Part shown: piece by piece, positions 66 through 17,247 of the stretch | Position numbering within the stretch: the stretch's first letter is position 1 | Layout: every line of letters starts with the position of its first letter | Source: Candidatus Parcubacteria bacterium | GTDB lineage: Bacteria > Patescibacteriota > Microgenomatia > UBA12405 | Length of the DNA: 32,000 nucleotides | Direction of reading: 5' to 3' | NCBI GenBank assembly: GCA_023443725.1 | Contig: JAEZTF010000010.1 | Location: 1 to 32,000 of the forward strand | The notes under the pieces: generated by a model | What the model was told of the DNA's origin: nothing | Database searches by the model: none | Seen by the model: only the letters and a program-made list of their open reading frames with translations | Translations under genes and position numbers: made by a program

Positions 66-500
66 TTATTTATTTCTTTTGTTTTGAATCCCTGCTTTTA
101 TTCTTTTGGAAACAATTTCTCTTTCGAGACTGCAAAACAATCCAAGAATTAAAATTGAACAAATGTCCTTTTGGATATCAAAATCTTTATCGGGAGTTAT
201 TATCCCTTCTAGATTTTTCCTTTGTATGAGTTCAATAAGCTGATTAAAATCTGCTTGGCGACGACAAAGTCTGTCTATTTTCGTCGTTAGCAAATAATCC
301 ACCTTGTTTTGTTTTATCCACTCAACTAATTCTTTAATGTTGGGATTTGTTCCAAAGCTTTCAAAAATCTTTTTAATCTCAAGATTTCTTTTATCGGCTA
401 TAGCCTTAAGAGTTTTCTCTTGATTTTTAATCGAACTATTATTGTTTTGTTGAACTGCTGATTGTCTACAGTAAATGACACAAGTTTTCTTGTTTTTCAT
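66..500 (-). CDS. Small serine recombinase (resolvase/invertase catalytic domain only, no recognisable HTH domain)
   Basis: 144 aa. 'VIYCRQSA' fits the catalytic-serine motif (YxRxS). 'KIDRLCRR' and 'SLEREIVSKRIKAGI' fit the resolvase core and E-helix. The protein ends directly after the E-helix. Confidence 0.8.
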   Translation of the reverse strand: MKNKKTCVIYCRQSAVQQNNNSSIKNQEKTLKAIADKRNLEIKKIFESFGTNPNIKELVEWIKQNKVDYLLTTKIDRLCRRQADFNQLIELIQRKNLEGIITPDKDFDIQKDICSILILGLFCSLEREIVSKRIKAGIQNKRNK

Positions 501-546
501 TGTTTTATCTAATTATTAATTTGAGGTTTGGGAGTGATGATTCATT

Positions 547-1437
547 TCATGGTGGTCTGTATTTTTGAATTAATTCATCAAAATCTTTCTTCACCATTCC
601 AGCCGAAAAATAATTACACCAATCTTTCCCTAAAATTTCAGGCACTTCAATTTGAATAATTTTTTTAGGATCAATTTGTTTTGAGAGTATTTTTATTGTT
701 TTCTGGCCTCCAGCTTTTCCTTCCAAGTCGTTATCAAAAGCAACAATTATTAGGTCGAAACCAGTAAGTTCGGAAACATATTTTTCACTAAAGCTCATAT
801 TCCCAGATGTCGGAGAAAAACAGCTATAACCTGTTTCCTGATGGGTTCTTATGCTGTCAAATTCACCTTCAGTAATAATGGCAATTTTGGGATCTCCTCC
901 AGTTTTGAAGAATGTATGTTTTGAACCTTTTTCAAATCGATATTTGATTCCACTACAGCCAAAAACACGATGTTTATAGCCCCCAGGAGTTCTGAATTTA
1001 ATTGTTGGATACTGATACGTTCCTATCCAAGTTTTACTGAAGCAAAAATCAAATTTTTGCTGAGACTCATAATTAATGCCGTGATTTTTAAGGTACTCTT
1101 TGGCTTCGTCAAAATTAATTTCTGGATTTATCTCAAGTGAAGAATCAAACCATTTAAGTGCTTGTTTGAAATTCAGCTTCAAATGCTTTTGAACCAATGC
1201 AATCACATCTCCTGTGGCTGAACAGCCAAAGCAGTAGAATGTTCCCGTTTTTGGATACAGTGTCAGAGATGGTGTTTTTTCTTCATGGAAAACACATTTT
1301 GTCTGAATCGGTTTATCGCCAATGGCTTTAATAGTTGAGATAATTCCAATTTTTTGGGCAACGTCAACAATACTGTTTTCCCTCTTAATCTTTTCAATGG
1401 TTTCCTTATTAACTAGTTCCATATTATTTACTTTCAT
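547..1437 (-). CDS. DNA primase, CHC2 zinc finger + Toprim (phage/plasmid type)
   Basis: 296 aa. 'CVFHEEKTPSLTLYPKTGTFYCFGCSATGDVIALV' is a DnaG-type CHC2 zinc finger. 'IITEGEFDSI' and 'VAFDNDLEGKAGG' are the Toprim E and DxD motifs. Confidence 0.85.
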   Translation of the reverse strand: MKVNNMELVNKETIEKIKRENSIVDVAQKIGIISTIKAIGDKPIQTKCVFHEEKTPSLTLYPKTGTFYCFGCSATGDVIALVQKHLKLNFKQALKWFDSSLEINPEINFDEAKEYLKNHGINYESQQKFDFCFSKTWIGTYQYPTIKFRTPGGYKHRVFGCSGIKYRFEKGSKHTFFKTGGDPKIAIITEGEFDSIRTHQETGYSCFSPTSGNMSFSEKYVSELTGFDLIIVAFDNDLEGKAGGQKTIKILSKQIDPKKIIQIEVPEILGKDWCNYFSAGMVKKDFDELIQKYRPP

Positions 1438-4476: not shown

Positions 4477-4477
4477 T

Positions 4478-4918
4478 TTATTTTTTGATAATTCCAATCT
4501 TCTCCCAAATGTTTTTATAACTGACTTGTTTGCCATATTTATTGCCGTCATCGACACTCTTTGAAAAAGCCAAGTAAAGGAAATAAATAAAACTCATCAA
4601 TCCACCGATACTCTTGTCGATTGATGATAAAACCGCCAAAACAAATCCAATAAGAACTGGAACCACCCATGATTGATTGAGGTCATGATGTCTCCTAATC
4701 AAAATCGAAAGCGATAAAAGTCCAGACATAACAATTGGAGCGACAATAAAAAACAAAGAAAGTATTCCAGAAGTAGAAAACATAAGACCAAAAATAGTAT
4801 CGATCAGTGATACAACTGCCCATAAGACAAAGATTGGTATCCAAACAATAATCGGGGTGAGAATAATGGCAATAATAAAATCTTTTTTTGAAAGCCTGTC
4901 TTTGAAGTTTATTTTCAT
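4478..4918 (-). CDS. DUF805-family inner-membrane protein
   Basis: 146 aa, multi-pass hydrophobic. 'IRRHHDLNQSWVV' resembles the DUF805 RRLHD..SGW signature. Confidence 0.65.
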   Translation of the reverse strand: MKINFKDRLSKKDFIIAIILTPIIVWIPIFVLWAVVSLIDTIFGLMFSTSGILSLFFIVAPIVMSGLLSLSILIRRHHDLNQSWVVPVLIGFVLAVLSSIDKSIGGLMSFIYFLYLAFSKSVDDGNKYGKQVSYKNIWEKIGIIKK

Positions 4919-5041
4919 AATTTTAATAAAAGGTGATCAAATACAACTAACTTTTGTTTTACCAATTATAAGGCGATTTTTAATCAAAATCTACACGATA
5001 GTAAAGGACGCAACTGTCAATAAAATCGTAAGATTAGGATA

Positions 5042-5254
5042 ATGTTGTCTAAAGAGAGACTTATAGAAAAATTTAGTAAAAAACTCAAGGAAGAAATGGG
5101 TAATATGAGCCAAGAATCTTTGGCGACTAAGTCTGGTTTGAATATCAGTTATATTGGTAGGCTTGAGCGAGGAGATGCTTGTCCAACAATTTATGCTGTC
5201 TACAAAATTGCTTTGGCTTTGAAAGTTAAACCTAGTGATTTGATGGAGTTATAA
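5042..5254 (+). CDS. XRE-family helix-turn-helix transcriptional regulator
   Basis: 70 aa. 'MSQESLATKSGLNISYIGRLERGD' is a classic HTH_3 motif. Confidence 0.8.
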   Translation: MLSKERLIEKFSKKLKEEMGNMSQESLATKSGLNISYIGRLERGDACPTIYAVYKIALALKVKPSDLMEL

Positions 5255-6493
5255 ATCTCCGCTTGGCAATTCTAGTGATTCGATTTTAGGTAACGCTTGA
5301 CCAGTTAAATCCTCAAGATCCCCATACATTCCGATAGTATTTTCAATTACTCTGTTAATTTGAGATTCTCTCTTTGCCCAAATTTTGGTGTAAGAGTCTT
5401 TTTCTTTTTGTAAATCGGTTCTCAATCCTCGGAACGCCTCGACAATTGCCTCAACTCTTTGATTAAAACCAGTGCCAGTTAAATAATTGAACAGAACTTC
5501 CATTTTTTCGTTTTTACCAACATTGGCTAATTTAAGAGAAGTTAATTGAAGAAGATTTGTTCTCAATGCTAATGCTAAACCTAAAAATGAGGCAAAATCT
5601 GTGATCCAAACTCCATCCTTTTGACCGAAATTCTTCATATCTTTCGGTAAAACAGTGGTAACTATAACTGCAATTTCTGCCTTTGCATTTCGTTGGTCAT
5701 CTTTTAATTTTGGAATCCAGTTGTCAGTCCAAGCTTTTGTGTGTTTTGACTCCCATACAATGGTTCCACAATGATGTCCGAAATTATCGAATACTTTTTG
5801 AGTGATATCCGCTCCATTCTCCCCTTTTCCAACTGGGATGATTTCATCTCTAGTAAATTCTGTTCTTAGTAACCCTTCTAATTCCAATTCTTGGACTTCT
5901 CCTTGAGTTTGTTGTGATCCTTGTTGAAGTTTTCTTTTTAGTTCATCATTCACCTTCATGGCATCAGTAAGTTGTTTTGATAATTCTGCTAATTTATATT
6001 GTTGCTCTTCAGATGCTTTTTTAGCTGCATCTTCAGTAATTTTCTTTCTTTCTTCATCAAGCTGTCTTTGTTTTTCTAATTCAAAGTTTTTCTTTTGATC
6101 CTCAAGCTCCAATTTTTCTTTTCTTAAATCAAGTTCAGCCTTTCTGGCCTCTTCAAGTTTTTTATCCTTTTCATCCAATTTTTCTGAAAGCATTTTGATT
6201 TCATCAGCCGATTCTTTTTTGGCTTCTTCCTTGATAATTTCTTTTAGTTTTGTCTTTTCAATTTCTAAAGCTTTTGAAACACCTTGGTTAACTAGCAGCT
6301 GAACATTGTTTCGAGCATCATTAATCCGTTTTTCTTGTTCTTCCAGTGCTTTTTTCTTTTGATCAATCTCATCTTCTTTGATCTTTTGATCTGCCTCAAA
6401 TTTCTTTCTTAATTCGTCACCAATTTGATGGGCTAAAACCTCATCAACTGATATTTCTGTACTACATTTTGGACAAATTATTTTTTGCGTCAT
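5249..6493 (-). CDS. DUF2130-like protein: N-terminal CxxC, long coiled coil, C-terminal PD-(D/E)xK-like nuclease core (RmuC-like architecture)
   Basis: 414 aa. 'IICPKCSTEISVDE' at the N-terminus. Residues about 25-205 are K/E/L-rich heptad-like. 'GADIT' (D229) and 'IVWESK' (E248-x-K250) are in nuclease-motif order. Its ATG overlaps the upstream stop (ATGA, 6490-6493). Confidence 0.7.
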   Translation of the reverse strand: MTQKIICPKCSTEISVDEVLAHQIGDELRKKFEADQKIKEDEIDQKKKALEEQEKRINDARNNVQLLVNQGVSKALEIEKTKLKEIIKEEAKKESADEIKMLSEKLDEKDKKLEEARKAELDLRKEKLELEDQKKNFELEKQRQLDEERKKITEDAAKKASEEQQYKLAELSKQLTDAMKVNDELKRKLQQGSQQTQGEVQELELEGLLRTEFTRDEIIPVGKGENGADITQKVFDNFGHHCGTIVWESKHTKAWTDNWIPKLKDDQRNAKAEIAVIVTTVLPKDMKNFGQKDGVWITDFASFLGLALALRTNLLQLTSLKLANVGKNEKMEVLFNYLTGTGFNQRVEAIVEAFRGLRTDLQKEKDSYTKIWAKRESQINRVIENTIGMYGDLEDLTGQALPKIESLELPSGDL

Positions 6494-9132
6494 AGATTTT
6501 TGATATTAAATTTGTTTCTTCTGTTTTCAAAGGCTTCTTTTCCTCCTTCGAGCAAATCGCATGCATGTTCTCTTATTCCCATTTTATTTAGAAAACATGA
6601 AGCTTCAGGTTCAGTAAAAGTATTCTCAATACTTCCAGTAAAATATTCAAACATTATGTCATTTGTATTTTTAGTTTGTGGTCCATTTCTGTTAACGACG
6701 ATTATTTCTTCAGCATCTGCTTTAATGGCGATATTGGCATTATGAGTAACAAGAATAATTTGTCTTTCTTTCTTTTTTATTCTTAAAAAATTAACAATTT
6801 CGTTTGAAATCGATCTACTGTCAAGATCATCTTCTGGTTGGTCGATTAATATCGGATATTTATCTTTGCTGGATTCAATTAAAAGTTTTAATACCACTAG
6901 GGCTTTTTTACCAGGTGTCATGTCTGGATATTCGTCACCTTCATAAGACAAAGAATAATTTATGAATTCAAAATCGGAAAATAAACCTTCGACTGCTCTT
7001 TGAATATCGACTCCTGATTTTGTTTTAAGTTTTTCATCAAGTAACAAGTTCAATACAGTGGTAATATTATCAGCTTTTATCAAAGCAGATGGATCATAAA
7101 TATCGTCGTTCTTGTATCCAGGTATTGCATTTAGAGACAACCTGCAGTCTGTTGAGTTGTGAATATTTATCGAGTCTTCCAAATATTTATTTAATTTTGT
7201 TTTGTCAATTTCAACATTAGCTGAATATTTAATACCATCAATGTCACCTACCGTGTTTACTATAAATCCATTTTTAAGTTCAGTTCTTTGTTTGTGAGCT
7301 TCAACAATTTTGTTTTTAATGTCTAGAAAGGAAGTTTCTAGATTGCCTAGGACACCTTCTTCTTTTATGATTTCGGCTAGTTTAGCCTCTTGCTGTTCCC
7401 TTTCTTTTATTTTTTCTGTGGCTGATTTATTTTCTCTTGATTTGTCGATCAAATCTTTATTATCAGTTAGAATTTTTGAATTAGTGGATTCGAGTGCAAC
7501 TTTTTCTGCAGTAAGTTGTTCATTTTTTGTTTTTAAGAAAGCCAAGTAATTTATTAAATATTTTGTTTTACTTTCTTTTTCAAATTTTGAGAGTTCTTCA
7601 ATTAAATCAACTGACTTTAATAATAAAGCTCGGTCTTGAAATATTTCAGCTTCTGATGGTGGTTGTGACATTTCAGTAGTAAATACTCCGATATCATTTG
7701 ATAAATTTTCGATTTTGTTCTTATTTTCGTTAAATAATTTGCTTATTTCAGTTAACTTAACGCGATCTTCTGGAGTGAAATTCTTTTGTAGCGATTTAAT
7801 TGTCTCATCTAATAATTTAATCTGTTCAGAAATACCTGCTTTATCTCCAATCTTCTTAATTTTTTCTTTTTGTTCAGAAATTTGTTTTTTCAGAGTAAAT
7901 AAACGAAAAATATTACTAGCTAAATTAGTTCCTAATATTTCAACTTGGTTATCCAATTCTTCTTTTTGAGAAGAGATAGGATTTTGGCTATCAAAGATAG
8001 CTTTTTCAGCTATCTCCAAAATAGGTGCTTCTTCATCTTTTGCTTCTGCAAGATTGATTATGTAATTTTGTGGTATATAAGTAATTCCTTTATTAATATC
8101 ACTAGTTGGAAGAATGCTACCGTCTTTCCATTTAACAGTTAAAGATGGAGGCTCTCTTGGTGGTTTTTGTCCGTCAAATCTAGAGTTGTACTCTGAAATG
8201 TCGATCGCTTTCGCAATGCTATTTAATAATGTCGTTTTACCTGATGATCTGCTACCAATAATGACAGTAAGGTTAGAATTCAAAGGAATTGGAGTTGGTG
8301 AAAAGTTTGTATCATTTATAACTACTTCTGAAATTACTCGATAGACGTCTTTTTCATCTGGTTGAAATTCCTGTACCGCCACTCTTTCATCTGGTTCATA
8401 TAAAATTTGTTTTAATCCCTCAAAAGTTAAATCTGCTTTGATCCAGCAATTTTGTTTAAGAACGTATTCTTCAATATTATGGTTATCGGAGCACAAAATC
8501 ATTGGAAAAGTTTTTTTAATGTTTGGAAAAACATGTTGACGATAATCGTTTAGATCACTTTCTTTACCAATTTCAAAAATGTCGACATTTTTAGAAATGT
8601 CTAATTTTTCAGCCATATTTACAGGTAAGGCATTGGTGATATTTTCGATACTATTAGATTTCTTTCCTGAATGTATTGATACTAATCCTCCAAGATTTCT
8701 GATTAATGCACATGTCTCGTCTAACTTACAATAAATTTCATTATTTCCACGACCAGACTTTTCTTGTGATGCAATATCAGCCCCGTTGTAGAGCTGTCCC
8801 CATATATAGTCTAAGTCAGAGTTCTCTGGAAAAATACCGATAAAGTGAATCGGTTCTGATCCTCTTGAGTTTGAACATAATTCTATACCTGGAAAAATTG
8901 TAATTTCGTCTCCTGCTAGCTTCCTTAATTCCAAAATTCTGTTTATATCAATAATATGATGATCTGTTATTGCAACAGCATTAATTTGATTTTCCTTTAA
9001 GACTTCAATAATTCTGTCGTTACCTACCGACTTATTTTGGTAGTCGTAGGAACTTGGAGTGTGAAAATGTAAATCCCATTTTCTCCATTCTGATCCCTTT
9101 GAAAATCTATTGTTCACCCCACACCTCCTCAA
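6490..9132 (-). CDS. PHP-domain phosphoesterase fused to a coiled-coil ABC (Rad50/SbcC/SMC-like) ATPase
   Basis: 880 aa from TTG 9132. The likelier start is GTG 9117, 6 nt after GGAGG at 9124-9128. PHP ligands: H22xH24, D57-H58, E84, H96, H154, D216xH218. Walker A GSRSSGKT at 293-300 (nt 8233-8256). Coiled-coil-like region about 385-625. Signature-like TPGKK at 739-743, Walker B ILIDQPEDD at 761-769, H-loop VTHN at 795-798. Confidence 0.8.
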   Translation of the reverse strand: MRRCGVNNRFSKGSEWRKWDLHFHTPSSYDYQNKSVGNDRIIEVLKENQINAVAITDHHIIDINRILELRKLAGDEITIFPGIELCSNSRGSEPIHFIGIFPENSDLDYIWGQLYNGADIASQEKSGRGNNEIYCKLDETCALIRNLGGLVSIHSGKKSNSIENITNALPVNMAEKLDISKNVDIFEIGKESDLNDYRQHVFPNIKKTFPMILCSDNHNIEEYVLKQNCWIKADLTFEGLKQILYEPDERVAVQEFQPDEKDVYRVISEVVINDTNFSPTPIPLNSNLTVIIGSRSSGKTTLLNSIAKAIDISEYNSRFDGQKPPREPPSLTVKWKDGSILPTSDINKGITYIPQNYIINLAEAKDEEAPILEIAEKAIFDSQNPISSQKEELDNQVEILGTNLASNIFRLFTLKKQISEQKEKIKKIGDKAGISEQIKLLDETIKSLQKNFTPEDRVKLTEISKLFNENKNKIENLSNDIGVFTTEMSQPPSEAEIFQDRALLLKSVDLIEELSKFEKESKTKYLINYLAFLKTKNEQLTAEKVALESTNSKILTDNKDLIDKSRENKSATEKIKEREQQEAKLAEIIKEEGVLGNLETSFLDIKNKIVEAHKQRTELKNGFIVNTVGDIDGIKYSANVEIDKTKLNKYLEDSINIHNSTDCRLSLNAIPGYKNDDIYDPSALIKADNITTVLNLLLDEKLKTKSGVDIQRAVEGLFSDFEFINYSLSYEGDEYPDMTPGKKALVVLKLLIESSKDKYPILIDQPEDDLDSRSISNEIVNFLRIKKKERQIILVTHNANIAIKADAEEIIVVNRNGPQTKNTNDIMFEYFTGSIENTFTEPEASCFLNKMGIREHACDLLEGGKEAFENRRNKFNIKNL

Positions 9133-11584
9133 TTCTTTGATTTATTTTTTCTTGGTAGAGCTCGATAAGTTTCTTTAGTGGTTCAATTATAGATTTCTCA
9201 TTTTCTATTTTTTCGATTATTTGCCTTTGTGTGTTTATCGAAGGTAAAGCAATTGTCAGCTCGTTTAAGTCCTCAGGATTTACACCAGACTGTCTCACTC
9301 TTCCTGATAATGAAATTATTTTCTTTTGAACGGGGTCTGAAGATAAAAAATAATAAAGCCAATCATTGGTAATTTTATTATTGTCTGGTAAACACTTCAT
9401 TAATGCAACGTTATACGCTCCTGTTTTGCCACGTAAAATTTGAAAAACTGGTGGTCCATATCTTCCAATCATAATATCGGTTTCGCTACAAGTTTTGTGT
9501 CTTGCAGATTTGGGAATATAAACTGCATTTTTGTCTGATTTATAATCTCTAATCTGAAGTAATCGTATATATCCTGTTTTTGGCGTATCGATAAATGTGG
9601 ATTTTGGAGGTTGAGTTCCACCAGCATAGCTACAAACTTCTCCCAATCTTACTTTTTTCCATTTTGGATCATTTTTGAAGATGGGTTTCCAATTCTCAAC
9701 CACTTGTTTTGCCCCGTCGATAATTTTTTGAAATTCGTCAATTTCTTTTACAATTTGTTTTTGAATTTCGATTGGTGGTAACGGTATCTGTTTTTGATAA
9801 GCATCGTTTCTATTTAATCCTGGCACTCCTGATTGGATTTTTAATTTTCCCAATTCAAGTTTTTTCAACATCCAAAAAAGATATTTCAATAAAATTTTTT
9901 CTTCATTTTCTAATTTGATGTAGAACGTTGTGTCTATTGGAAAACCTGATATTTCTGACATTGTAATTTCACCAGCAGACCCTTTTCTTCCAACAATAAT
10001 AAATGGCCCTTCAACAATGTATTGGTTATGAAAACCGATAATTCCAGACGAACCAAATACTGGGTAGTCGCCTGATTTTCTAGAATTTTCTTTTAATGGT
10101 TTTCCATATTCAAAAGTACAAATGTCACCTAATTTAGCTAAAGGATAATTTCCTTGGGTGTAAACGGTATTATCTTGATATTTGTCTCCATTTAATGAGT
10201 AATCTTCTTTTTCTTTTATTTTAGTAATTGGAATTAAATTGGCTTTTGATTTTGGCCCATGATCCAATAATATTGGTTTTAACCCTGGTTCTAATGGTTT
10301 TAATAATAACTCTCTGTAACCATTGATCCAATTTAATGCTTCAGGTAAGTCATTTTTATCTATTGGACGTTTGGTGGCTCCAAGATCGAAACCGTCATTT
10401 TCTACTTTTACAAAAAGGATATCTTTAACTTTGTTTTTGAGAGATTTGTCAAAAAAGAGAATACTAGTTTTAACTCCTGCATAAGGATTAAAAATTCCAC
10501 TAGGTAAAGAAACTACACACCAAAGACCAGCATCTTCAACCAACATTTGGCGAATTTTTTTATGGGCGTTTGTCGAATTAAAAACTACTCCTTCGGGAAC
10601 AATAACACCTGCTCGACCAGATGGTGAAAGATGGTCGATCATGTAACGTAAGAAGAGTAATTCTGTTGATCGAGTTCCCATTCTTAAATCTTCACTGACA
10701 CTGTCGATATCTAAAGCCCCAGCAAAAGGTGGATTGGCTAATATTACATCCCATTTGGTTCTATCCCCTGCGGTATCGACTAAGGTATTCTGTCTTTTCA
10801 TGTTTGGATGCTCGAGTTTATGAAGATAAAGATTCATAAGTCCGAATTTGAACATGTCAAAGTCACTGTCAAATCCAGTAAAGGTGTATTTGTAGACAAA
10901 ATCTCTTTCTTGAGGAGTTAATAAATCCATTGGATATTTATCAATTTTTTTGTACTCGTCTGATGAATATTTTTCTTCAAGATGTTTGAGAGCGGCAACT
11001 AAAAAACCTGCTGTACCACAAGCAGGGTCTAAAATTGTTTCGCCTTTTTTAGGATCGATAACATCGACTATAAATTTGATAATGTGTCGTGGAGTTCGAA
11101 ATGATCCAAGAGTACCAGCTTGAGAAAGTTTGCTTAATAAATATTCGTACATGTCACCAAAAATATCGGTGTGACCAGCGGTAGCTTGTTTTTCCAAATC
11201 AGAAAACATTTTTTCGATCTCATGGACTAATCTTCTTAATGTTGGTTTGTCAAAAACTTTTACATGAGCATCGCGGAAAAGTAATTTTATTGTTTGACTG
11301 GTGGTTATCTCTGGGAGTTTTCGAAAGACTTCTTCAAGGGAGTTAAATAATTCATCAGCATTAAGAATTAAGAGATTGTCCCAGTGATATTTTCTTAATT
11401 CTCCACTAAAAATTTTTTCGGCAGATGGATCAAGGATCATGGCATTATCGTCTTTTCTAGAAAGAGATCTTAAAAAGACAAGATAATTTATTTGTTCAAT
11501 GATGGTGGCATGACTAGCGACTCCAGCACCGAAAAGAATATTCATTAAATTGTCTACTTGGTTTTTGAAATCTGTTTGGGTCAT
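9107..11584 (-). CDS. hsdM: Type I R-M methyltransferase fused to a complete two-TRD specificity subunit (HsdM-HsdS fusion)
   Basis: 825 aa. 'DPACGTAGF' (AdoMet motif I, 186-194) and 'NPPF' (284-287). From about residue 480 there are two target-recognition domains ('LGDICTFEYGKPL...', 'LGEVCSYAGGTQPPKS...'). They are separated and followed by conserved helical spacers ('IPLPPIEIQKQIVKEID', 'LPSINTQRQIIEKIE'). Confidence 0.85.
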   Translation of the reverse strand: MTQTDFKNQVDNLMNILFGAGVASHATIIEQINYLVFLRSLSRKDDNAMILDPSAEKIFSGELRKYHWDNLLILNADELFNSLEEVFRKLPEITTSQTIKLLFRDAHVKVFDKPTLRRLVHEIEKMFSDLEKQATAGHTDIFGDMYEYLLSKLSQAGTLGSFRTPRHIIKFIVDVIDPKKGETILDPACGTAGFLVAALKHLEEKYSSDEYKKIDKYPMDLLTPQERDFVYKYTFTGFDSDFDMFKFGLMNLYLHKLEHPNMKRQNTLVDTAGDRTKWDVILANPPFAGALDIDSVSEDLRMGTRSTELLFLRYMIDHLSPSGRAGVIVPEGVVFNSTNAHKKIRQMLVEDAGLWCVVSLPSGIFNPYAGVKTSILFFDKSLKNKVKDILFVKVENDGFDLGATKRPIDKNDLPEALNWINGYRELLLKPLEPGLKPILLDHGPKSKANLIPITKIKEKEDYSLNGDKYQDNTVYTQGNYPLAKLGDICTFEYGKPLKENSRKSGDYPVFGSSGIIGFHNQYIVEGPFIIVGRKGSAGEITMSEISGFPIDTTFYIKLENEEKILLKYLFWMLKKLELGKLKIQSGVPGLNRNDAYQKQIPLPPIEIQKQIVKEIDEFQKIIDGAKQVVENWKPIFKNDPKWKKVRLGEVCSYAGGTQPPKSTFIDTPKTGYIRLLQIRDYKSDKNAVYIPKSARHKTCSETDIMIGRYGPPVFQILRGKTGAYNVALMKCLPDNNKITNDWLYYFLSSDPVQKKIISLSGRVRQSGVNPEDLNELTIALPSINTQRQIIEKIENEKSIIEPLKKLIELYQEKINQRIEEVWGEQ

Positions 11585-13959
11585 AGGTTGAGAATTCGAC
11601 TATCTTTAACTTCCAAAACCATATTAATTAAATTATCTCTTCCAAAGATATTAACCCATTCATCTGGGGTAAAAGTATTGAAAGGACTAGTATTCAAAAA
11701 TAAGATATTTGGTGATTTTTTGATTTCGTTTCTTAATTCTTTATTTTGAATTAATTCATCGATAAGTAATTTGACCATCATGACTTTTTGTTGTGATCCG
11801 CCAGTAGTAGCCTCGCCATATTTTTCGACGATTCCATCTTTCCATTCTTTTAATTGTTGATCTCGATTTGGTAATTCTTTTTTACCAATGGCTGATAAAA
11901 AGAAATCTCTGATAGTGGCGACGACTTGGTGAGATTCGATTAAAGTTTCTTCATTAAAATAAAGTTCTGGTTTGTTGAGCAATTCAGTATTAATGATTTC
12001 TAATAATTCGTCTTGTCTGTTTTCGTCTTCGGCAATTTGTTTGATATCTGGTCGACTCTCGGCAAATTTAATGACTGTTTTTGTCCAATCGCTTTGATAC
12101 ATTTCTCGATCAACTCTGTCGCCATTTGGGCCATAAATAAGCTCATCTCTTCCATTAACAAAATCAAGACGATTAATGATTGGTTTATCTCCATAATCAA
12201 TAATGACTCCAGGACCTTCTCCTATTGGTTGTTCGATGACTCCTGTTTCTCCTGGGGATGGTCTTTCAATTGGTTTGGCTGATTCTTCAGTGACTTTTAG
12301 TGGTGCTGTCCAATCATATGTTTCTTCAAAATACTGACAAACACCGCAGAAATCGAAAATGACAAATTCTTTTTTATCAATTTCTTTACAAAGACGAGTA
12401 CCCCGACCTTTAATTTGTTGGTAAAGAGTTGGTTCAAAAACTGGTCGACAAAGAACAATATTTAGAATCTCTGGAGCATCGAATCCAGTGGTTAACATAT
12501 CAACAGAAACGGCAATTCGAGGTAATTGAATATCAAGATTTCTAAAGTCTTTGGCCAACTCATGAGCACCTTTCACTTGACTGGTAATGGTTTGTGCAAA
12601 ACGGCCATTAAATTCTGGTCTGAGATTATTCAATATTTTTTCGAGAGCTAAAGCATGTCTTTGATTGACGGCAAAAATTATAGTTTTACCAATTTCATTT
12701 GTTGGAGTTTTTAAGGCATATTCTAAAAACTCTTTCATCATTAATTCGTTTCTTTTGGGAATTGAGACTTTCTTTTCGATATCAGTTATTTTGTAATTTT
12801 CATTTTCAAAATCACCTTCACCAGCTAACCCTTGATCGCTTAAGGCTTGTTGAGTAATATCAGAAGTCATTTTGTGAAGTTTGGCAGGGACTAGATATCC
12901 ATCTTTAACTCCGTCTTGAATGTTATATTGATAAGTGGCTTTGCCGTCTTCACATCCGAAATATCGATAAGTACTTCTTTGAATTCTTAACTCAACAGCT
13001 CTTGGATCATCAAGACCCAATTTATTAATATCAATGTTTTTTAGGAAGTCTTTTGGAGTGGCGGTTAAACCAATTCTGGTAGCTCCAACAAAATAATCCA
13101 TTATTCCCCTAGCTTCGGCTGAATAAATACTTCGGTGAGCTTCGTCATGGATAATTAAATCAAAATATCCTGGAGTAAAAACATCTCTTCCGTGAGCGAT
13201 TAATGATTGGATAGTAGCGACGACGATATTGGCTCCAGTTAAATTCTTTTTTGATTCTCCCCAGTAAGTGGCAATAGCTGATAAGTTTCCAAGAAGTTTT
13301 TCAAATGATCCTTTTGTTTGACGAGCTAATTCAATTCGATCGACTACAAATAAAACAGTTTGAGCTTGATTTGTTTTGATAAATTTGGAAATGATAAGAG
13401 CAGATAAAACAGTTTTTCCTGTACCTGTGGCCATCTCCAATAAAAATCCTCTTTTGCCTTGATCGTATTCATTAGCAATGGCATTGAAAGCATCAATTTG
13501 ATAAGGTCGAAGTTTAATATCGGAATTAATATCTGAAAAATAATCGGAGCTTATAGGTTTTTGATTAAGAGGTTCACTAATTTTGGCTGATCTGGTTTGT
13601 CTTTTTCTAACTAAATCGTCTTGAGAAAAGAAAGCTGGAACTGGGGTGGCATCACCACCAGAATTAAAATCCCAAAAATAAATGATATGATCATTGGCTA
13701 AAAAAATATAATCGATATTTCCTTTGTACTGTAAATCGGCATAATCAAAAGATTGTTTCTTGGCTGAATAAGGATCAATATCTGGGGCTTTGGCTTCGAT
13801 TAGAGCTATTGGTTTTCCATGTTTGTCCTTAAGAACGTAGTCGGCCCTACCTGCTACACCATGATCTTCAAAAACAACTTGATTAGTATCAAAAATGTCC
13901 CAACCTACATCTTTAAGATGTTGATCGATAACTGCTCTTGAATAAGCTTCTTTTGGCAT
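11581..13959 (-). CDS. hsdR: Type I restriction enzyme R subunit (PD-(D/E)xK nuclease + SF2 DEAH translocase)
   Basis: 792 aa. N-terminal 'GRADYVL...IALIEAKA' (D40, E55-x-K57). Walker A 'ATGTGKT' (177-183). 'DEAH' (272-275). Motif VI 'QQIKGRGTR'. Its stop overlaps the hsdM-S start (ATGA, 11581-11584). Confidence 0.85.
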   Translation of the reverse strand: MPKEAYSRAVIDQHLKDVGWDIFDTNQVVFEDHGVAGRADYVLKDKHGKPIALIEAKAPDIDPYSAKKQSFDYADLQYKGNIDYIFLANDHIIYFWDFNSGGDATPVPAFFSQDDLVRKRQTRSAKISEPLNQKPISSDYFSDINSDIKLRPYQIDAFNAIANEYDQGKRGFLLEMATGTGKTVLSALIISKFIKTNQAQTVLFVVDRIELARQTKGSFEKLLGNLSAIATYWGESKKNLTGANIVVATIQSLIAHGRDVFTPGYFDLIIHDEAHRSIYSAEARGIMDYFVGATRIGLTATPKDFLKNIDINKLGLDDPRAVELRIQRSTYRYFGCEDGKATYQYNIQDGVKDGYLVPAKLHKMTSDITQQALSDQGLAGEGDFENENYKITDIEKKVSIPKRNELMMKEFLEYALKTPTNEIGKTIIFAVNQRHALALEKILNNLRPEFNGRFAQTITSQVKGAHELAKDFRNLDIQLPRIAVSVDMLTTGFDAPEILNIVLCRPVFEPTLYQQIKGRGTRLCKEIDKKEFVIFDFCGVCQYFEETYDWTAPLKVTEESAKPIERPSPGETGVIEQPIGEGPGVIIDYGDKPIINRLDFVNGRDELIYGPNGDRVDREMYQSDWTKTVIKFAESRPDIKQIAEDENRQDELLEIINTELLNKPELYFNEETLIESHQVVATIRDFFLSAIGKKELPNRDQQLKEWKDGIVEKYGEATTGGSQQKVMMVKLLIDELIQNKELRNEIKKSPNILFLNTSPFNTFTPDEWVNIFGRDNLINMVLEVKDSRILNL

Positions 13960-14013
13960 GGTTAATTATACCGCCTATCTGATGAGATTCTTAGGCAGTT
14001 GTTTATAATTAAT

Positions 14014-14184
14014 TTATTCAATTTTGGTATCTTCGGACGGTTTTTTGATTGGCTTTGATATTAAGGCAAAAAACTTCAAAAAACTCTCTGCCTCAATTCT
14101 TGCCTTTTCAAAACTAATTTCTCCACATTTTTTCCTGTAGATTTCTTGAAATTCTTTGACGGCTTCATCTGATAGAAATGACAT
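14014..14184 (-). CDS. Hypothetical 56-aa ORF directly upstream of hsdR (not in the ORF track)
   Basis: Hand translation: MSFLSDEAVKEFQEIYRKKCGEISFEKARIEAESFLKFFALISKPIKKPSEDTKIE. Same strand as the R-M operon, 54 nt upstream of the hsdR ATG. No family recognised. Confidence 0.3.
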   Translation of the reverse strand: MSFLSDEAVKEFQEIYRKKCGEISFEKARIEAESFLKFFALISKPIKKPSEDTKIE

Positions 14185-14200
14185 ACCCTATTATAGGGTA
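14184..14200. promoter_or_regulatory. Perfect 17-bp palindrome between divergent mini-ORFs (candidate operator)
   Basis: TACCCTAT-T-ATAGGGTA: 8-bp arms with a 1-nt centre. It abuts the start codon of the minus-strand mini-ORF and lies 10 nt before the plus-strand ATG at 14210. Confidence 0.5.
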
Positions 14201-14209
14201 AGATTAATT

Positions 14210-14377
14210 ATGGATCTTAAGAAAGCAAGAGAATTACTTGGAGAGGAAAATAACAAATATGATGACGACCAAATTCTTGAATTTATTGATACTGCCAAAC
14301 TCTTGTCTAGTATTGCGATTGATACAATTCAAAAAATGACAAAGAAAGAATTGGAAGAACTTGTGAAGAAAAAATAG
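14210..14377 (+). CDS. Hypothetical 55-aa protein (start moved to the first ATG)
   Basis: The track ORF 14156..14377 starts at TTG. The ATG at 14210 gives MDLKKARELLGEENNKYDDDQILEFIDTAKLL..., predicted helical and acidic/basic. No family recognised. Confidence 0.35.
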   Translation: MDLKKARELLGEENNKYDDDQILEFIDTAKLLSSIAIDTIQKMTKKELEELVKKK

Positions 14378-14479
14378 TAGCTTTGATTTAATTCACAGCT
14401 ATGCCGTACAACTCAAAAACATTTTTTAGTTTGACTAGGTATACTAAAAGGTGTTCGAAATTCGGAACACTCAGCTCAC

Positions 14480-14716
14480 ATGTATTATGTGTATGTATTA
14501 AAAAGTCTTAACACAGGGAAATTTTATAAAGGTCAAACTTCTGATCTTAATGACAGATTGTATCGTCATTTTACAGGTCAGTCTATTTCGACAAAATCAC
14601 TTCTGCCACTAGAATTGATTTTCGTCCAAATTTGTAATACCAGAAGTGAAGCAGTTTTATTGGAAAAATATTTAAAATCAGGAATAGGGAGAGAGTTTAT
14701 TAAACATATAGTTTAG
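14480..14716 (+). CDS. GIY-YIG nuclease superfamily protein (small stand-alone type)
   Basis: 78 aa. 'YYVYVLKS...GKFYKGQTSDLNDRLYRH...E' matches GIY-(10-11)-YIG plus the conserved R and E. Confidence 0.8.
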   Translation: MYYVYVLKSLNTGKFYKGQTSDLNDRLYRHFTGQSISTKSLLPLELIFVQICNTRSEAVLLEKYLKSGIGREFIKHIV

Positions 14717-14786: not shown

Positions 14787-15443
14787 TTATTTTTTAAGAG
14801 AGACGATTTGTTTTATTAATCTGATTTGATGACGAAGAACGATTAGAATAGACCCAAATAAAACTGGTAGAAATAATTTTGGTTCTATAAGAGAAATAAT
14901 TGGTATAGCGATAAGTTCACCAATTAAACGACCGATGATTTGATCGGAAATTGATTGAAAAATAATTTTTGAAGTAATCTGTTGATGATTGAATATTCGA
15001 AAAATAATTTCTGTAATTAGAGATGAAAGAAAAATAATTAATAGCCAATATAAAAAAATAGAAAAACGAAAATACATTAATATTCCCATAAAACAAGCAG
15101 CTCCCCTACCGCCTTTACCTTTTAACCAAATTGGATAATTGTGTCCTAAAATAACAAATAAGGTGGAAAGAGAAGTTGTGATTGTAAAATTTAAATTAAA
15201 TTTAAGTGATAAATAAATGGCAGTAGCGGCTTTAAAACAATCAAACAACCAAACAAAAAGAAAACTGAGAATAGCCACAAATAGACCTTTTTCTTTTTTA
15301 GTAATTCGAAGAGTATTCATGGCTCCCATATTTCCAGAATCGCTAGATCGAACATCTTTTTTGGTAACAATTTTTACTAAAATAAGAGCTGTTGGAATGG
15401 AGCCTAAAAGATAAGAAATAAAACAAATTAATATATAGTTCAT
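14787..15443 (-). CDS. plsY: Acyl-phosphate:glycerol-3-phosphate acyltransferase PlsY, divergent paralog
   Basis: 218 aa, multi-pass. 'LLGSIPTALIL...SDSGNMGAMNTLR' and 'LKGKGGRGAA' correspond to the PlsY motifs. Its ATG overlaps the upstream stop (15440-15443). Confidence 0.7.
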   Translation of the reverse strand: MNYILICFISYLLGSIPTALILVKIVTKKDVRSSDSGNMGAMNTLRITKKEKGLFVAILSFLFVWLFDCFKAATAIYLSLKFNLNFTITTSLSTLFVILGHNYPIWLKGKGGRGAACFMGILMYFRFSIFLYWLLIIFLSSLITEIIFRIFNHQQITSKIIFQSISDQIIGRLIGELIAIPIISLIEPKLFLPVLFGSILIVLRHQIRLIKQIVSLKK

Positions 15444-17242
15444 ATGTTTTGAAGTAAAACTCCAATTGAAATTGAATCTGGACCTCCGTGAATTCCTAAA
15501 ACTGGAGATAATAATGAGCTATGGATAATTTCAAATTTTTTGGGATCAAGTTTTTGAATAAGTTGTCTGATAACTTTATCATCACAACTGTGTTGAATAA
15601 TTACCTTTAATGGTAAATTATTAATATTATTTTTTTTAGCTATCTGATTTAAGTATTTATTAATTAAAAAAGAAACACTTTTATGGCCAAAATAGATTCT
15701 CATAATACCGATACTTTTGGGGGTTAAATATAGTGTTGGTCGAAAATTAAATTTTTGAGCAAAGTTAACTATTTTAGCTTTGTTTCCAGCCACTCTACCA
15801 CCTTTGACAGCCCACGATATTTTGTCTGGGATGACAAAAACTTTAAGATGATTACTAACACTAAAAAGTGTTTTTTCAATTTGTTGAGATGAATAACCTT
15901 GTTTAATCAACTCAACAGCTTTGATAGTTAAAAAACCTTGTCCTGGACCAACTTGTCGGAAATCTGGAATAATAACTCGATTTTGATCTGAAGTAGGTAA
16001 AAAAGACCTAGCCTGAAGTGAACTATTGTATGAACCAGAAATAGCAGATGAGGCAGTGATACACATAACAATATTGTATTTTTGAAGTTGTTCTTTAAAA
16101 GCATTTAAAAAAGCTTGAGGTGATGGTTGTGAAGTTTTGGGCCAGCCATATTTTTCAGTTTGATTTTCAAAAAGTTTCATTTTTTGATAAATAGAAATTT
16201 TTGGATCACTTATTTTTTGATCAACTTTTTCCCATTTAGCTTTGAATTGAACTACAGAAATATCGTTTTCTAAAGTAAAGTCAGGATCTAGACTAGCGGT
16301 ACTATCGACAACTAAACCAGTTGATTGTCTGTGATCATTATTACCTTCGACTTGTTGGGTCATATCAGTAGTTTTAATATTGATGACTGTACCGTATTGA
16401 GAAATTAAATTAACTACTTCATCAGGTAAATCTGTATGGATATGAATTTTAACTTTTTGATTAGCCTGAACAATATCGAGACAATTACCGTAATTAATTA
16501 ATTGATCGATAATTTTTTCTTTAGTTATTTTTGGTGATTGGATTAAAGAAATAACTTCATAACGATGATCAATTATCTGTAGAAAACTAGTGGTTTTTTG
16601 GGATATTTTTTGGGGAATATTAAAATGATATTTTTTACCATTTAATCCATCAAGAAAACCTTCTAACATCAAAAGAAAACCATAACCACCAGCATCAACA
16701 GTATTAGTTTTTTGATATAAATCCATTTTTAATTGAGTAGCATCTAGGGAAATTTTGGCTTTTTTAATAGCTTCTTGAAGGTTTTGTTGAAAGCTGTTTT
16801 TAGTAGAATTGGAAAAACTATCATTACTTGCTTGAATAACATCTAGAATAGTTCCTTCTTTTGGGTTTTGAATTGATTCATAAGCAGATATCATGCCTTG
16901 AGAAAAAGCTTGGTTAAAATCGGAAATGGAAATATTGTTATTAGACAGGTTTGATAAAAAACCATTTAAAAAACCAGTGACAATAATACCGACATTTCCA
17001 GATGCATTACAAATGGCTCCATCAACGGCCGTGTCTCGAAGTTGAGTTATATTTGAAAATTTTTTTTGATCAATAGCGTCGTAAACTCCTTGTAAAGTGG
17101 CGGTTAAATTATCTCCTGTATCTTTATCTGGTACAGGAAACATATTAATTGAATTTATTTGTTCTTTCTTGGAAATAACTTTTTGATAAGCTGAAATTAG
17201 CATTCGACGAAGAGTTTCCGGAGTAAGAAATTGAGACTTCAT
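15440..17242 (-). CDS. DAK2-domain / DegV-like fatty acid kinase subunit (FakA/YloV-like)
   Basis: 600 aa. N-terminal DAK2/DhaL-like 'PDKDTGDNLTATL'. The C-terminal half has a DegV-type 'GLVVDSTASLDPDF...ISVV' start. Confidence 0.7.
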   Translation of the reverse strand: MKSQFLTPETLRRMLISAYQKVISKKEQINSINMFPVPDKDTGDNLTATLQGVYDAIDQKKFSNITQLRDTAVDGAICNASGNVGIIVTGFLNGFLSNLSNNNISISDFNQAFSQGMISAYESIQNPKEGTILDVIQASNDSFSNSTKNSFQQNLQEAIKKAKISLDATQLKMDLYQKTNTVDAGGYGFLLMLEGFLDGLNGKKYHFNIPQKISQKTTSFLQIIDHRYEVISLIQSPKITKEKIIDQLINYGNCLDIVQANQKVKIHIHTDLPDEVVNLISQYGTVINIKTTDMTQQVEGNNDHRQSTGLVVDSTASLDPDFTLENDISVVQFKAKWEKVDQKISDPKISIYQKMKLFENQTEKYGWPKTSQPSPQAFLNAFKEQLQKYNIVMCITASSAISGSYNSSLQARSFLPTSDQNRVIIPDFRQVGPGQGFLTIKAVELIKQGYSSQQIEKTLFSVSNHLKVFVIPDKISWAVKGGRVAGNKAKIVNFAQKFNFRPTLYLTPKSIGIMRIYFGHKSVSFLINKYLNQIAKKNNINNLPLKVIIQHSCDDKVIRQLIQKLDPKKFEIIHSSLLSPVLGIHGGPDSISIGVLLQNI

Positions 17243-17247
17243 TATGG

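What the first reader, a model, noticed from the sequence alone, without database searches (positions are those of the whole stretch)
6490..9132. Single-chain PHP phosphoesterase + coiled-coil ABC ATPase: an SbcCD/Mre11-Rad50-like design with PHP swapped in as the nuclease
Seen: residues about 15-225 carry the PHP metal-ligand set in canonical order (H22xH24, D57-H58, E84, H96, H154, D216xH218). Walker A GSRSSGKT follows at 293-300. About 240 residues of K/E/L-rich heptad-like sequence (385-625) separate it from a signature-like TPGKK (739-743), Walker B ILIDQPEDD (761-769) and H-loop VTHN (795-798). Established: an ABC head split by an inserted coiled coil is the Rad50/SbcC/SMC/RecN design. 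Rad50/SbcC act with a separate calcineurin-type phosphoesterase (Mre11/SbcD). PHP domains are metal-dependent phosphoesterases/exonucleases, as in the DnaE N-terminus and the C-terminus of bacterial PolX. Inference: this protein could clamp or tether DNA ends and degrade them in one polypeptide. That activity would be useful against linear phage DNA or R-M cleavage products.
Basis: partly seen in the sequence, partly recalled or inferred. Interest (0 to 1): 0.75.

Follow-up and report, generated by a model that had tools for sequence, protein, structure and literature searches.

The report
PHP-nuclease/ABC-ATPase defence gene inside restriction operon
The gene encodes a real fusion of a PHP metal-dependent nuclease domain with a coiled-coil ABC ATPase, but it belongs to the already named TrlF family (a relative of the anti-phage protein Ppl); the most useful new point is that it fills a slot in a type I restriction operon that sister genomes fill with other ATPase-nuclease defence proteins.

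Summary
The gene lies on the minus strand at 6490-9132, and its start is probably the GTG at 9117. It encodes a PHP phosphoesterase with a complete metal-ligand set, fused to an ABC ATPase whose head is split by a ~240-residue antiparallel coiled coil. The AlphaFold2 model has pLDDT 85. Foldseek matches SMC, JetC, Rad50 and RecN heads, and RNase AM and Pol III-alpha PHP domains.

The design is not new. The protein passes NCBIfam's curated cut-off for the "TrlF family AAA-like ATPase" (492 bits against 350). Its N-terminal 300 residues are homologous to the anti-phage protein Ppl. The family is large and found in many phyla and on plasmids.

The gene overlaps its neighbours in an operon, hsdR-hsdMS-trlF-DUF2130. 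Sister contigs with 75-88% DNA identity in the flanks carry a different gene in the same slot: an RloC-like anticodon nuclease or an OLD-family nuclease. Other TrlF genes sit inside type I or type III R-M operons.

My best reading is a restriction-linked contingency nuclease. It has the architecture of Rad50/SbcC, but no zinc hook and no Mre11/SbcD partner. Verdict: new member of a known kind, moderate interest.

The parts
6490..9117 (-). trlF-family gene (875 aa from GTG 9117; the mechanical ORF extends to TTG 9132; stop codon 6490-6492)
   Evidence: ORF list and translation. Shine-Dalgarno and GTG. NCBIfam NF045780 scores 492.5 bits against a cut-off of 350, aligned over residues 12-874.
9124..9128 (-). 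Shine-Dalgarno GGAGG, 6 nt upstream of the GTG start, inside the 3' end of hsdMS
   Evidence: Sequence read. The homologue N-termini agree with the GTG start.
8368..9096 (-). PHP (TrpH/PolX-type) metal-dependent phosphoesterase domain, residues ~13-255 (TTG numbering); ligands D20, H22, H24, D30, D57, H58, E84, H96, H154, D216, H218
   Evidence: Pfam PHP is sub-threshold (21 bits). Foldseek hits RNase AM 9etk at 2e-6 and Pol III alpha PHP at about 1e-4. A profile of the family hits 9etk at 3.7e-4.
7981..8349 (-). ABC ATPase head, N-terminal half (residues ~262-384): Walker A G293-T300 and Q-loop Q355
   Evidence: G293, S296, G298, K299 and Q355 are invariant in 37 of 37 homologues. PDB sequence hits to AriA, PtuA and Rad50 fall on this stretch.
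7258..7980 (-). Antiparallel coiled-coil insert (residues 385-625); apex 490-507 (MSQPPSEAE...); no cysteine, so no zinc hook; conserved kink at G429
   Evidence: AlphaFold2 helices 385-489 and 508-625. Heptad z = 4.1 and zero Cys. G429 is invariant. Foldseek hits to SMC, Rad50, JetC and RecN.
6493..7257 (-). ABC ATPase head, C-terminal half (residues 626-880): signature-like TPGKK 739-743, Walker B/D-loop ILIDQPEDDLD 761-771, H-loop TH797N
   Evidence: G741, D764, Q765, P766, E767, D768, D771, H797 and N798 are invariant. PADLOC GajA (1.4e-10) and Pfam AAA_21 and SMC_N hits fall here.
11581..13959 (-). hsdR (792 aa), EcoAI-like type I restriction subunit, first gene of the operon; it carries its own D40...E55-x-K57 nuclease motif
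   Evidence: Pfam ResIII, HSDR_N and Helicase_C. NCBIfam restrict_EcoAI 2e-87, below its cut-off. PADLOC REase_I. The motif was read.
9107..11584 (-). Fused hsdM-hsdS gene (825 aa); overlaps hsdR by 4 nt and the trlF GTG start by 11 nt
   Evidence: Pfam N6_Mtase 2e-56 plus Methylase_S (two stretches). PADLOC MTase_I 2e-117 plus Specificity_I 7e-85.
5249..6493 (-). DUF2130 gene (414 aa), last gene of the operon, with a 4-nt overlap onto the trlF stop. It has an N-terminal CPxC, a ~175-residue single helix, and a C-terminal PD-(D/E)XK-type core (invariant D229, E248, K250)
   Evidence: Pfam DUF2130 4e-65. Invariant residues. AlphaFold2 pLDDT 78. Weak Foldseek hits to the SPARDA, Bax1 and MspJI nucleases. 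DUF2130 is listed in the PD-(D/E)XK superfamily census (PMC3424549).

Best explanation
The gene encodes a TrlF-family protein. A catalytically competent-looking PHP metal-dependent nuclease is fused to an ABC ATPase whose two head halves are joined by a ~16-nm antiparallel coiled coil without a zinc hook. It is the third gene of a tightly overlapping operon, hsdR - hsdM/S - trlF - DUF2130.

I propose that it is a restriction-linked contingency nuclease, that is, an anti-phage effector of the Ppl / RloC / OLD kind. In this model the ATPase head and coiled coil sense nucleotide state and/or DNA ends and gate the PHP nuclease. The nuclease then degrades nucleic acid when the co-encoded type I R-M enzyme fails or is inhibited.

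What is shown:
- domain identity and family membership;
- conservation of the catalytic residues;
- operon embedding;
- interchangeability of the slot with an RloC-like and an OLD-family ABC-ATPase nuclease.

What is inferred: the defence function, the substrate (DNA 3' ends, by analogy with Ppl), gating by ATP/NTP, and the relation to the R-M enzyme and to DUF2130.
For: Family and fold:
- TrlF HMM scores 492.5 against a cut-off of 350 over the full length. The N-terminal 300 aa are homologous to Ppl (NCBIfam 2e-37; PADLOC Ppl 3.9e-30; PDC-M49A).
- The AlphaFold2 model and Foldseek hits support both domains.
- The ATPase motifs are invariant. The complete PHP ligand set is present here and in 26 of 37 homologues, and one more differs only by H96N.

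Operon:
- 4-nt and 11-nt gene overlaps, with a Shine-Dalgarno for trlF inside hsdMS.

Slot swap:
- L089, L090 and L091 share 75-88% DNA identity with window 10143-14437 (hsdR plus the M part) and with 4477-6487 (DUF2130 and downstream). Homology breaks at 6487-6500, the trlF stop.
- In place of trlF they carry a 742-748-aa AAA_13 ABC ATPase. It has a CxxC in its insert and an R-x3-E-x52-H motif that matches the published RloC anticodon-nuclease triad.
- L086 has HsdR at 80% and DUF2130 at 77% aa identity, and carries an OLD-family AAA_15+TOPRIM nuclease in the slot.

R-M embedding elsewhere:
- L064 hsdM..hsdS-trlF-hsdR; L084 mod-trlF-res; L085 mod-res-trlF; L046 hsdR-M-S-trlF; L061 trlF-hsdR-hsdM.
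- 15 of 80 genome loci have type I or III R-M genes within 6 kb, all on the same strand.
- The same association appears on plasmids.

Literature:
- Ppl is a PHP+ATPase single-gene defence, described as an NTP-inhibited, 3'-OH-end-dependent ssDNA 3'-5' exonuclease (PMC12904381; PMC11482910).
- PrrC and RloC are ABC-ATPase nucleases linked to type I/III R-M. RloC carries a Rad50-like coiled coil (PMC2610378, PMC3458546).
Against: - No experiment exists for any TrlF-family protein. In Photorhabdus, trlF showed no phenotype of its own (bioRxiv 10.1101/2020.06.02.129163).
- About 80% of TrlF loci have no R-M gene nearby, so R-M linkage is not a family trait.
- The best structural PHP match is an exoribonuclease (RNase AM), so the substrate could be RNA.
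- The Ppl homology covers only the N-terminal third. Ppl's own cut-off is far from met (128 against 1000).
- Pfam PHP is below its gathering score (21 against 26.4).
- Co-location in one operon could reflect co-mobilisation of independent defence genes rather than functional coupling.
Confidence: 0.6

Rival explanations
1. End-processing partner of the R-M enzyme. TrlF would clamp the DNA ends produced by type I cleavage and digest them. It would play the post-restriction role that RecBCD or SbcCD plays elsewhere, and would not be an independent sensor-effector.
For: - It is translationally coupled to hsdR and hsdMS.
- It has the SMC/Rad50-like head plus coiled-coil architecture.
- Ppl is reported to act on 3'-OH DNA ends (PMC12904381).
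- The recurrent links are to the translocating R-M types I and III.
Against: - The same slot in orthologous operons holds an RloC-like protein with the anticodon-nuclease triad, which is an RNA-directed toxin and not a DNA-end processor.
- Most TrlF genes stand without any R-M genes nearby.
- HsdR keeps its own nuclease motif.
- I did not test whether the host lacks RecBCD or AddAB.
Confidence: 0.2
2. An autonomous single-gene defence like Ppl, whose position in the R-M operon is incidental (defence-island hitch-hiking, co-mobilisation, shared promoter only).
For: - Neighbours are highly variable. Only about 19% of loci are R-M linked.
- The gene occurs on conjugative plasmids next to IS elements and recombinases.
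- RloC is likewise thought to carry an internal switch that lets it move without a silencer (PMC3458546).
Against: - All 15 R-M-linked genome loci are co-oriented, and several have overlapping or <100-bp junctions. In some, trlF is inserted between mod and res or between hsdS and hsdR.
- The gene is repeatedly paired with DUF2130 across phyla.
Confidence: 0.15
3. Housekeeping DNA repair or chromosome-maintenance factor (a true SbcCD/RecN analogue), or a growth-arrest component as in the Photorhabdus temperature-restriction locus.
For: - Fold hits to Rad50, RecN and SMC.
- The family name comes from the TRL operon, which arrests growth at 36 C (bioRxiv 10.1101/2020.06.02.129163).
Against: - Distribution is patchy, plasmid-borne and context-variable.
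- No trlG/trlR-like neighbours occur here.
- No repair genes are linked.
- No mutations mapped to trlF in the TRL study.
Confidence: 0.05

Closest known systems
TrlF family AAA-like ATPase (NCBIfam NF045780; named after trlF of the Photorhabdus laumondii temperature-restriction locus)
   Same: The match covers the full length and is above the curated cut-off. The PHP + Walker A + coiled coil + Walker B/H-loop layout is the same. Homologues on plasmids are annotated with this name.
   Different: Photorhabdus trlF sits with trlG (AlbA_2/HATPase_c_4) and trlR. Here the partners are a type I R-M system and DUF2130. No function has been shown for any family member.
Ppl (single-gene PHP + ATPase anti-phage protein, E. 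coli)
   Same: The N-terminal ~300 residues (PHP plus P-loop) are homologous (NCBIfam 2e-37; PADLOC 3.9e-30). The concept is the same: a nuclease gated by an NTPase. Ppl is reported as an ssDNA 3'-5' exonuclease (PMC12904381).
   Different: The score is far below Ppl's cut-off (128 against 1000). The C-terminal two thirds do not align as one piece. Ppl works alone, whereas this gene is embedded in an operon.
RloC / PrrC (restriction-linked ABC-ATPase anticodon nucleases)
   Same: Both are an ABC ATPase fused to a nuclease. RloC's head is likewise split by a Rad50-like coiled coil. Both are linked to type I/III R-M loci. An RloC-like gene occupies this very slot in sister operons (PMC2610378, PMC3458546).
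   Different: The nuclease here is an N-terminal PHP domain, not a C-terminal R-E-H anticodon-nuclease domain. There is no CxxC zinc hook. The two are not demonstrably homologous beyond the ABC fold.
Rad50-Mre11 / SbcCD
   Same: Both have an ABC head interrupted by an antiparallel coiled coil plus a metal-dependent phosphoesterase. Foldseek hits to Rad50 have E about 1e-5 to 1e-7.
   Different: - The nuclease is fused rather than separate, and it has the PHP fold, not the calcineurin fold.
- The coiled coil is short (~105-118 residues per arm).
- There is no zinc hook.
- The signature motif is TPGKK.
- By sequence it is nearer to AriA, PtuA and GajA.
OLD-family nucleases / GajA (ABC ATPase + TOPRIM)
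   Same: Both are defence ABC ATPases fused to a metal-dependent nuclease. PADLOC GajA hits fall on the C-terminal head half (1.4e-10). An OLD-family gene replaces trlF in L086.
   Different: The nuclease domain differs (PHP against TOPRIM) and is placed differently (N-terminal against C-terminal). TrlF has a long coiled-coil insert.

Membership tests
TrlF family AAA-like ATPase (NF045780) | Whole-protein HMM score at or above the curated cut-off (350 bits), with end-to-end alignment | tested here: met
   492.5 bits, E = 4e-147, residues 12-874 aligned to model positions 1-942 of 944.
TrlF family AAA-like ATPase (NF045780) | N-terminal PHP ligand set plus ABC Walker A, Q-loop, Walker B and H-loop conserved with the family | tested here: met
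   The window protein has the family-majority residue at all 11 PHP sites and at all ATPase motifs.
TrlF family AAA-like ATPase (NF045780) | Operon with trlG and trlR, as in the founding Photorhabdus locus | tested here: not met
   The neighbours are hsdR, hsdMS and DUF2130, with no AlbA_2/HATPase_c_4 gene. This is a feature of the founding locus, not of the HMM definition.
Ppl anti-phage protein (NF042955 / PADLOC Ppl) | HMM score at or above the cut-off (1000 bits) over the full length | tested here: not met
   128.6 bits. The best stretch is residues 13-312 against model positions 1-303 of 882. PADLOC aligns 12-310 to 3-308 of 894.
Ppl anti-phage protein (NF042955 / PADLOC Ppl) | NTP-inhibited 3'-5' ssDNA exonuclease activity that confers phage resistance | not testable with these tools
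   This needs biochemistry and phage assays. The property is taken from PMC12904381.
PHP domain superfamily (PF02811) | Pfam gathering score | tested here: not met
   21.0 bits against 26.4, covering only residues 20-118.
PHP domain superfamily (PF02811) | PHP barrel fold with the His/Asp/Glu metal ligands in canonical order | tested here: met
   Foldseek hits 9etk (RNase AM) at 2.3e-6 over 280 columns, and 3e0d, 2hpi and 4gx8 (Pol III alpha PHP) at about 1e-4. The family profile hits 9etk. The ligands are listed.
Rad50 / SbcC (SMC-like DSB-repair ATPases) | ABC head split by an antiparallel coiled coil | tested here: met
   AlphaFold2 helices 385-489 and 508-625 lie between Walker A and the signature/Walker B motifs. 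Foldseek hits to SMC, Rad50 and RecN.
Rad50 / SbcC (SMC-like DSB-repair ATPases) | CxxC zinc hook at the coiled-coil apex | tested here: not met
   There is no cysteine in residues 385-625. The apex is not conserved among homologues.
Rad50 / SbcC (SMC-like DSB-repair ATPases) | Separate Mre11/SbcD calcineurin-type nuclease partner | tested here: not met
   No such gene is in the operon or its flanks.
OLD family / GajA | C-terminal TOPRIM nuclease domain | tested here: not met
   The window protein has no TOPRIM hit. The L086 slot protein does have OLD-like_TOPRIM.
PrrC / RloC anticodon nucleases | C-terminal R-x3-E-x(36-52)-H anticodon-nuclease triad after the ATPase | tested here: not met
   The C-terminus of the window protein is the second ABC head half and ends at the H-loop region. 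The motif is present in the L089 slot protein.
PrrC / RloC anticodon nucleases | Genetic linkage to a type I (or type III) R-M locus | tested here: met
   The gene lies inside the hsd operon with overlapping junctions. This shows that it is placed like an rlo gene, not that it belongs to the family.

The most novel reading that the evidence does not exclude
Type I (and type III) R-M operons, especially in Patescibacteria, may carry a dedicated exchangeable effector slot, usually followed by the coiled-coil PD-(D/E)XK protein DUF2130. TrlF (PHP), RloC-like (anticodon nuclease) and OLD (TOPRIM) ABC-ATPase nucleases would be swapped into this slot as cassettes. In that case TrlF and DUF2130 would form a previously undescribed two-nuclease module. 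The pair also occurs without R-M genes and on the classic lactococcal phage-resistance plasmid pNP40. The R-M complex would silence or license it, and anti-restriction would trigger it, as in the PrrC model.
Probability: 0.3. Interest if true: 0.7.

Novelty: new member of a known kind. Interest (0 to 1): 0.45.

Why it matters
The TrlF family is large. It has at least 1180 representatives at 50% identity with E <= 1e-30, and it occurs in more than 578 species and on conjugative plasmids. No experiment has assigned it a function.

This locus gives the family a concrete, testable context. TrlF is genetically interchangeable with RloC-like and OLD-family defence nucleases inside one orthologous restriction operon, and it repeatedly travels with DUF2130. 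That predicts what TrlF does: it should act as a second-line nuclease coupled to restriction. It also names the constructs needed to test the prediction.

The result extends the "restriction-linked ORF" idea (PrrC/RloC) to a PHP nuclease and to the reduced genomes of candidate-phyla-radiation bacteria.

Tried and rejected
- Plus-strand translation of 6490-9132 is full of stops; the gene is on the minus strand.
- The sigma-70 promoter and terminator scan of 4900-14500 gave counts equal to shuffles, so it says nothing about operon boundaries.
- tblastn and phmmer with the window's DUF2130 protein missed the DUF2130 genes next to TrlF in other phyla. They were recovered by clustering plus Pfam.
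- L068 (HsdR + TrlF + DUF2130) is fragmented by frameshifts and was not used beyond the tblastn signal.
- No solved structure of a close relative exists. phmmer and a family profile against the PDB gave only P-loop-level hits to AriA, PtuA and Rad50, plus the PHP protein 9etk. The RloC-like slot protein had no PDB hit.
- Foldseek on the DUF2130 model gave only weak hits (E >= 0.013).
- The primary Ppl mechanism paper and the ABC-ATPase classification paper were not in the searchable library. The Ppl properties are therefore quoted from a review.
- The lactococcal plasmidome papers do not mention the pNP40 DUF2130-TrlF pair.
- My recollection that Pfam AAA_13 is the PrrC/RloC family could not be confirmed from the literature. 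I relied instead on the published RloC criteria: size, CxxC and the R-x3-E-x52-H triad.
The Patescibacteria assignment rests on the closest named homologues.
- I considered and rejected an inactive PHP domain for this protein. A diverged N-domain subclade does exist (P0003-P0031), but the window protein has the full ligand set.

Full report
**1. What is there**

The window has an 880-codon ORF at 6490..9132 on the minus strand; the plus-strand reading is full of stops. The true start is probably the GTG at 9117. GGAGG (9128-9124) precedes it by 6 nt, and the resulting N-terminus MNNRFSKGSEW matches the homologue consensus MxxxYxxGSEW.

**2. Domains**

Pfam gives only sub-threshold hits: PHP 21 bits, SMC_N, AAA_21. 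NCBIfam gives a full-length hit above cut-off to "TrlF family AAA-like ATPase" (492.5 against 350 bits). It gives weaker partial hits to Ppl (N-terminal 300 residues) and to the Spaf_1101 ATPases (C-terminal half). PADLOC gives Ppl at 3.9e-30, PDC-M49A, and then GajA, AriA and PtuA on the ATPase motifs.

An AlphaFold2 model built on 37 homologues has pLDDT 85.4 and pTM 0.69. It shows four parts:
- an alpha/beta N-domain (residues 15-255);
- an ABC half-head with the Walker A motif;
- helices 385-489 going out and 508-625 coming back, with the apex at 490-507;
- the second half-head.

Foldseek against the PDB matches the head plus coiled coil to SMC (5xei, 6e-11), JetC, MukB, Rad50, RecN, LmuB and AriA. 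It matches the N-domain to RNase AM (9etk, 2e-6) and to the Pol III alpha PHP domains (about 1e-4).

The coiled-coil segment has heptad periodicity (z = 4.1 against shuffles). It contains no cysteine, so it has no zinc hook.

In the 37-sequence alignment the ATPase motifs are invariant. The PHP ligand pattern D20-H22-H24-D30-D57-H58-E84-H96-H154-D216-H218 is complete in the window protein and in 26 of 37 sequences, and one more (P0010) differs only by H96N. A Patescibacteria subclade has a diverged N-domain.

**3. Family size and spread**

An exhaustive HMMER scan found 1180 50%-identity representatives at E <= 1e-30 and 4032 at E <= 1e-10. A capped scan of one genome per species found at least 578 species across Patescibacteria, Bacteroidota, Bacillota, Pseudomonadota, Actinomycetota, Spirochaetota and others. 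Full-length copies annotated "TrlF family AAA-like ATPase" occur on conjugative plasmids of Lactococcus, Levilactobacillus and Enterobacter. The closest named relatives of the window protein and of its neighbour are from Patescibacteria.

**4. The operon**

Four co-oriented genes overlap one another:
- hsdR, 11581-13959, EcoAI-like, with its own D..ExK nuclease motif;
- a fused hsdM-hsdS gene, 9107-11584;
- trlF;
- a DUF2130 gene, 5249-6493.

DUF2130 has an N-terminal CPxC, a ~175-residue helix, and a C-terminal core with invariant D229, E248 and K250, a PD-(D/E)XK signature. The family is listed in the PD-(D/E)XK census (PMC3424549). Fold hits to the SPARDA, Bax1 and MspJI nucleases are weak.

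**5. The key comparative result**

Sister contigs carry the same operon with a different third gene.

- L089, L090 and L091 share 75-88% DNA identity with window 10143-14437 (hsdR plus the M part of hsdMS) and with 4477-6487 (DUF2130 and downstream genes). Homology breaks at 6487-6500, the trlF stop.
- In the slot they carry a 742-748-aa AAA_13 ABC ATPase. It has a CxxC in its helical insert and an R-x3-E-x52-H motif. Its size, its zinc hook and this triad meet the published criteria for RloC anticodon nucleases (PMC2610378).
- L086 has HsdR at 80% and DUF2130 at 77% aa identity. It carries an OLD-family nuclease (AAA_15 + OLD TOPRIM; PADLOC Old 1.5e-45) in the slot.

The slot therefore accepts three unrelated nuclease domains, each fused to an ABC ATPase.

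**6. R-M embedding elsewhere**

TrlF genes sit inside or beside R-M operons in several other loci:
- L084 (46% identical TrlF): between a type III mod and res, with overlaps.
- L085: after mod-res.
- L064 (Bacteroidota): between hsdS and hsdR with overlaps, the position PrrC occupies in its locus.
- L046: after hsdR-M-S. L061: before hsdR-hsdM.

Of 80 genome loci, 15 have type I or III R-M genes within 6 kb, and all 15 are on the same strand. Among 110 immediate neighbours, the most frequent Pfam families are ResIII (9), SWI2_SNF2 (6), HSDR_N (4), Methylase_S (4) and DUF2130 (4). Otherwise the neighbours are highly variable, as expected for a mobile defence gene.

The TrlF-DUF2130 pair recurs without R-M genes in Ruminococcaceae, Streptococcus, Glaciihabitans and an alphaproteobacterial MAG. 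It also occurs on the lactococcal phage-resistance plasmid pNP40.

DUF2130 is itself often found inside R-M loci. Several of those loci also gave weak tblastn matches (40-126 bits) to the OLD-family or AAA_13 slot proteins, but none of the 80 contained a TrlF gene.

**7. Interpretation**

The best-supported reading is a restriction-linked contingency nuclease of the Ppl / RloC / OLD functional class.

Ppl is a PHP+ATPase single-gene defence (PMC11482910). A 2026 review describes it as an ssDNA 3'-5' exonuclease that is inhibited by NTPs bound to both domains and activated by 3'-OH ends (PMC12904381). PrrC is silenced by its type I enzyme and released by a phage anti-restriction peptide. RloC has a Rad50-like coiled coil that acts as an internal switch (PMC2610378, PMC3458546).

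By analogy, TrlF's ATPase and coiled coil would gate the PHP nuclease. Whether the trigger is R-M failure, DNA ends or nucleotide depletion is inference.

It is weakened because a tRNA nuclease can occupy the same slot. A housekeeping repair role is unlikely given the patchy, mobile distribution.

**8. Comparison with the known, and novelty**

The protein is a member of the TrlF family (tested: met). It is not Ppl (cut-off not met). It is not Rad50/SbcC (no hook, no Mre11/SbcD partner, variant signature motif). It is not OLD (no TOPRIM) and not RloC (no anticodon-nuclease domain). It works like these proteins in layout only.

The fused PHP-ABC design is already catalogued, so this finding is a new member of a known kind. 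The new information is the cassette exchange inside an orthologous R-M operon and the recurrent DUF2130 partnership. I did not find either described in the searchable literature.

Noticed in passing
window 5249-6493 (-); also L009, L020, L021, L022, L068 and pNP40 (NC_010901 11074-14944): DUF2130 is a coiled-coil protein with an invariant D-ExK nuclease signature. It repeatedly sits next to TrlF in several phyla and on the classic lactococcal phage-resistance plasmid pNP40. It is itself common inside type I/III R-M loci. It may be an uncharacterised restriction-linked nuclease or a partner of ABC-ATPase nucleases.
   Followed up: partly
L089 5467-7695, L090 6591-8837, L091 3400-5643, L086 6397-8004: In orthologous hsdR-hsdMS-X-DUF2130 operons, the X slot holds an RloC-like AAA_13 protein (CxxC plus R-x3-E-x52-H) or an OLD-family ATPase-TOPRIM nuclease instead of TrlF.
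   Followed up: yes
window 9107-11584 (-): HsdM and HsdS are fused into one 825-aa polypeptide, with two Methylase_S stretches after the N6_Mtase domain. Between sister contigs the S part is much more diverged than the M part: DNA homology stops near 10143-10350, and HsdMS is 57% identical against 80% for HsdR. Specificity domains appear to be exchanged together with the slot gene.
   Followed up: partly
P0003, P0004, P0006, P0014, P0018, P0022, P0027, P0030, P0031 (incl. loci L083, L085): A Patescibacteria subclade of TrlF-like proteins keeps a closely related ATPase (about 55% identity over the C-terminal 75%). Its N-domain is diverged: only HxH, D57 and E84 of the PHP ligands are retained. 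This is either a degenerate or a re-tooled nuclease domain. These copies are linked to type III R-M.
   Followed up: partly
window 66-1437 (-) and sister loci L089, L091: A small serine recombinase (144 aa, 66-500) and a DnaG-like zinc-ribbon/Toprim primase (296 aa, 547-1437) lie a few kb downstream of the operon. Further resolvase genes lie beyond the window end (L001). The R-M/TrlF island may be part of, or adjacent to, an integrative mobile element.
   Followed up: no
window 5042-5254 (+): A 70-aa HTH_3 (Xre-type) gene converges on and slightly overlaps the 3' end of the DUF2130 gene. It is conserved in L089 and L091. It may be a controller-like regulator of the operon.
   Followed up: no
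window 14480-14716 (+): A 78-aa ORF with a GIY-YIG nuclease domain hit (from the gene calls of L001) lies just upstream of hsdR, on the opposite strand.
   Followed up: no
window 14787-18494 (-): Two PlsY (G3P_acyltransf) paralogues (14787-15443 and 17904-18494) flank a 600-aa FakA(Dak2)-DegV fusion gene (15440-17242). This is an unusual fused fatty-acid kinase arrangement.
   Followed up: no
L174 (pIBB109_AgSa_3) and L175 (pUCCLB521_A): Plasmid-borne TrlF genes in Lactococcus and Levilactobacillus also lie next to R-M genes. One is followed by a type III mod-res pair on the same strand. The other is divergent from an hsdR gene.
   Followed up: partly
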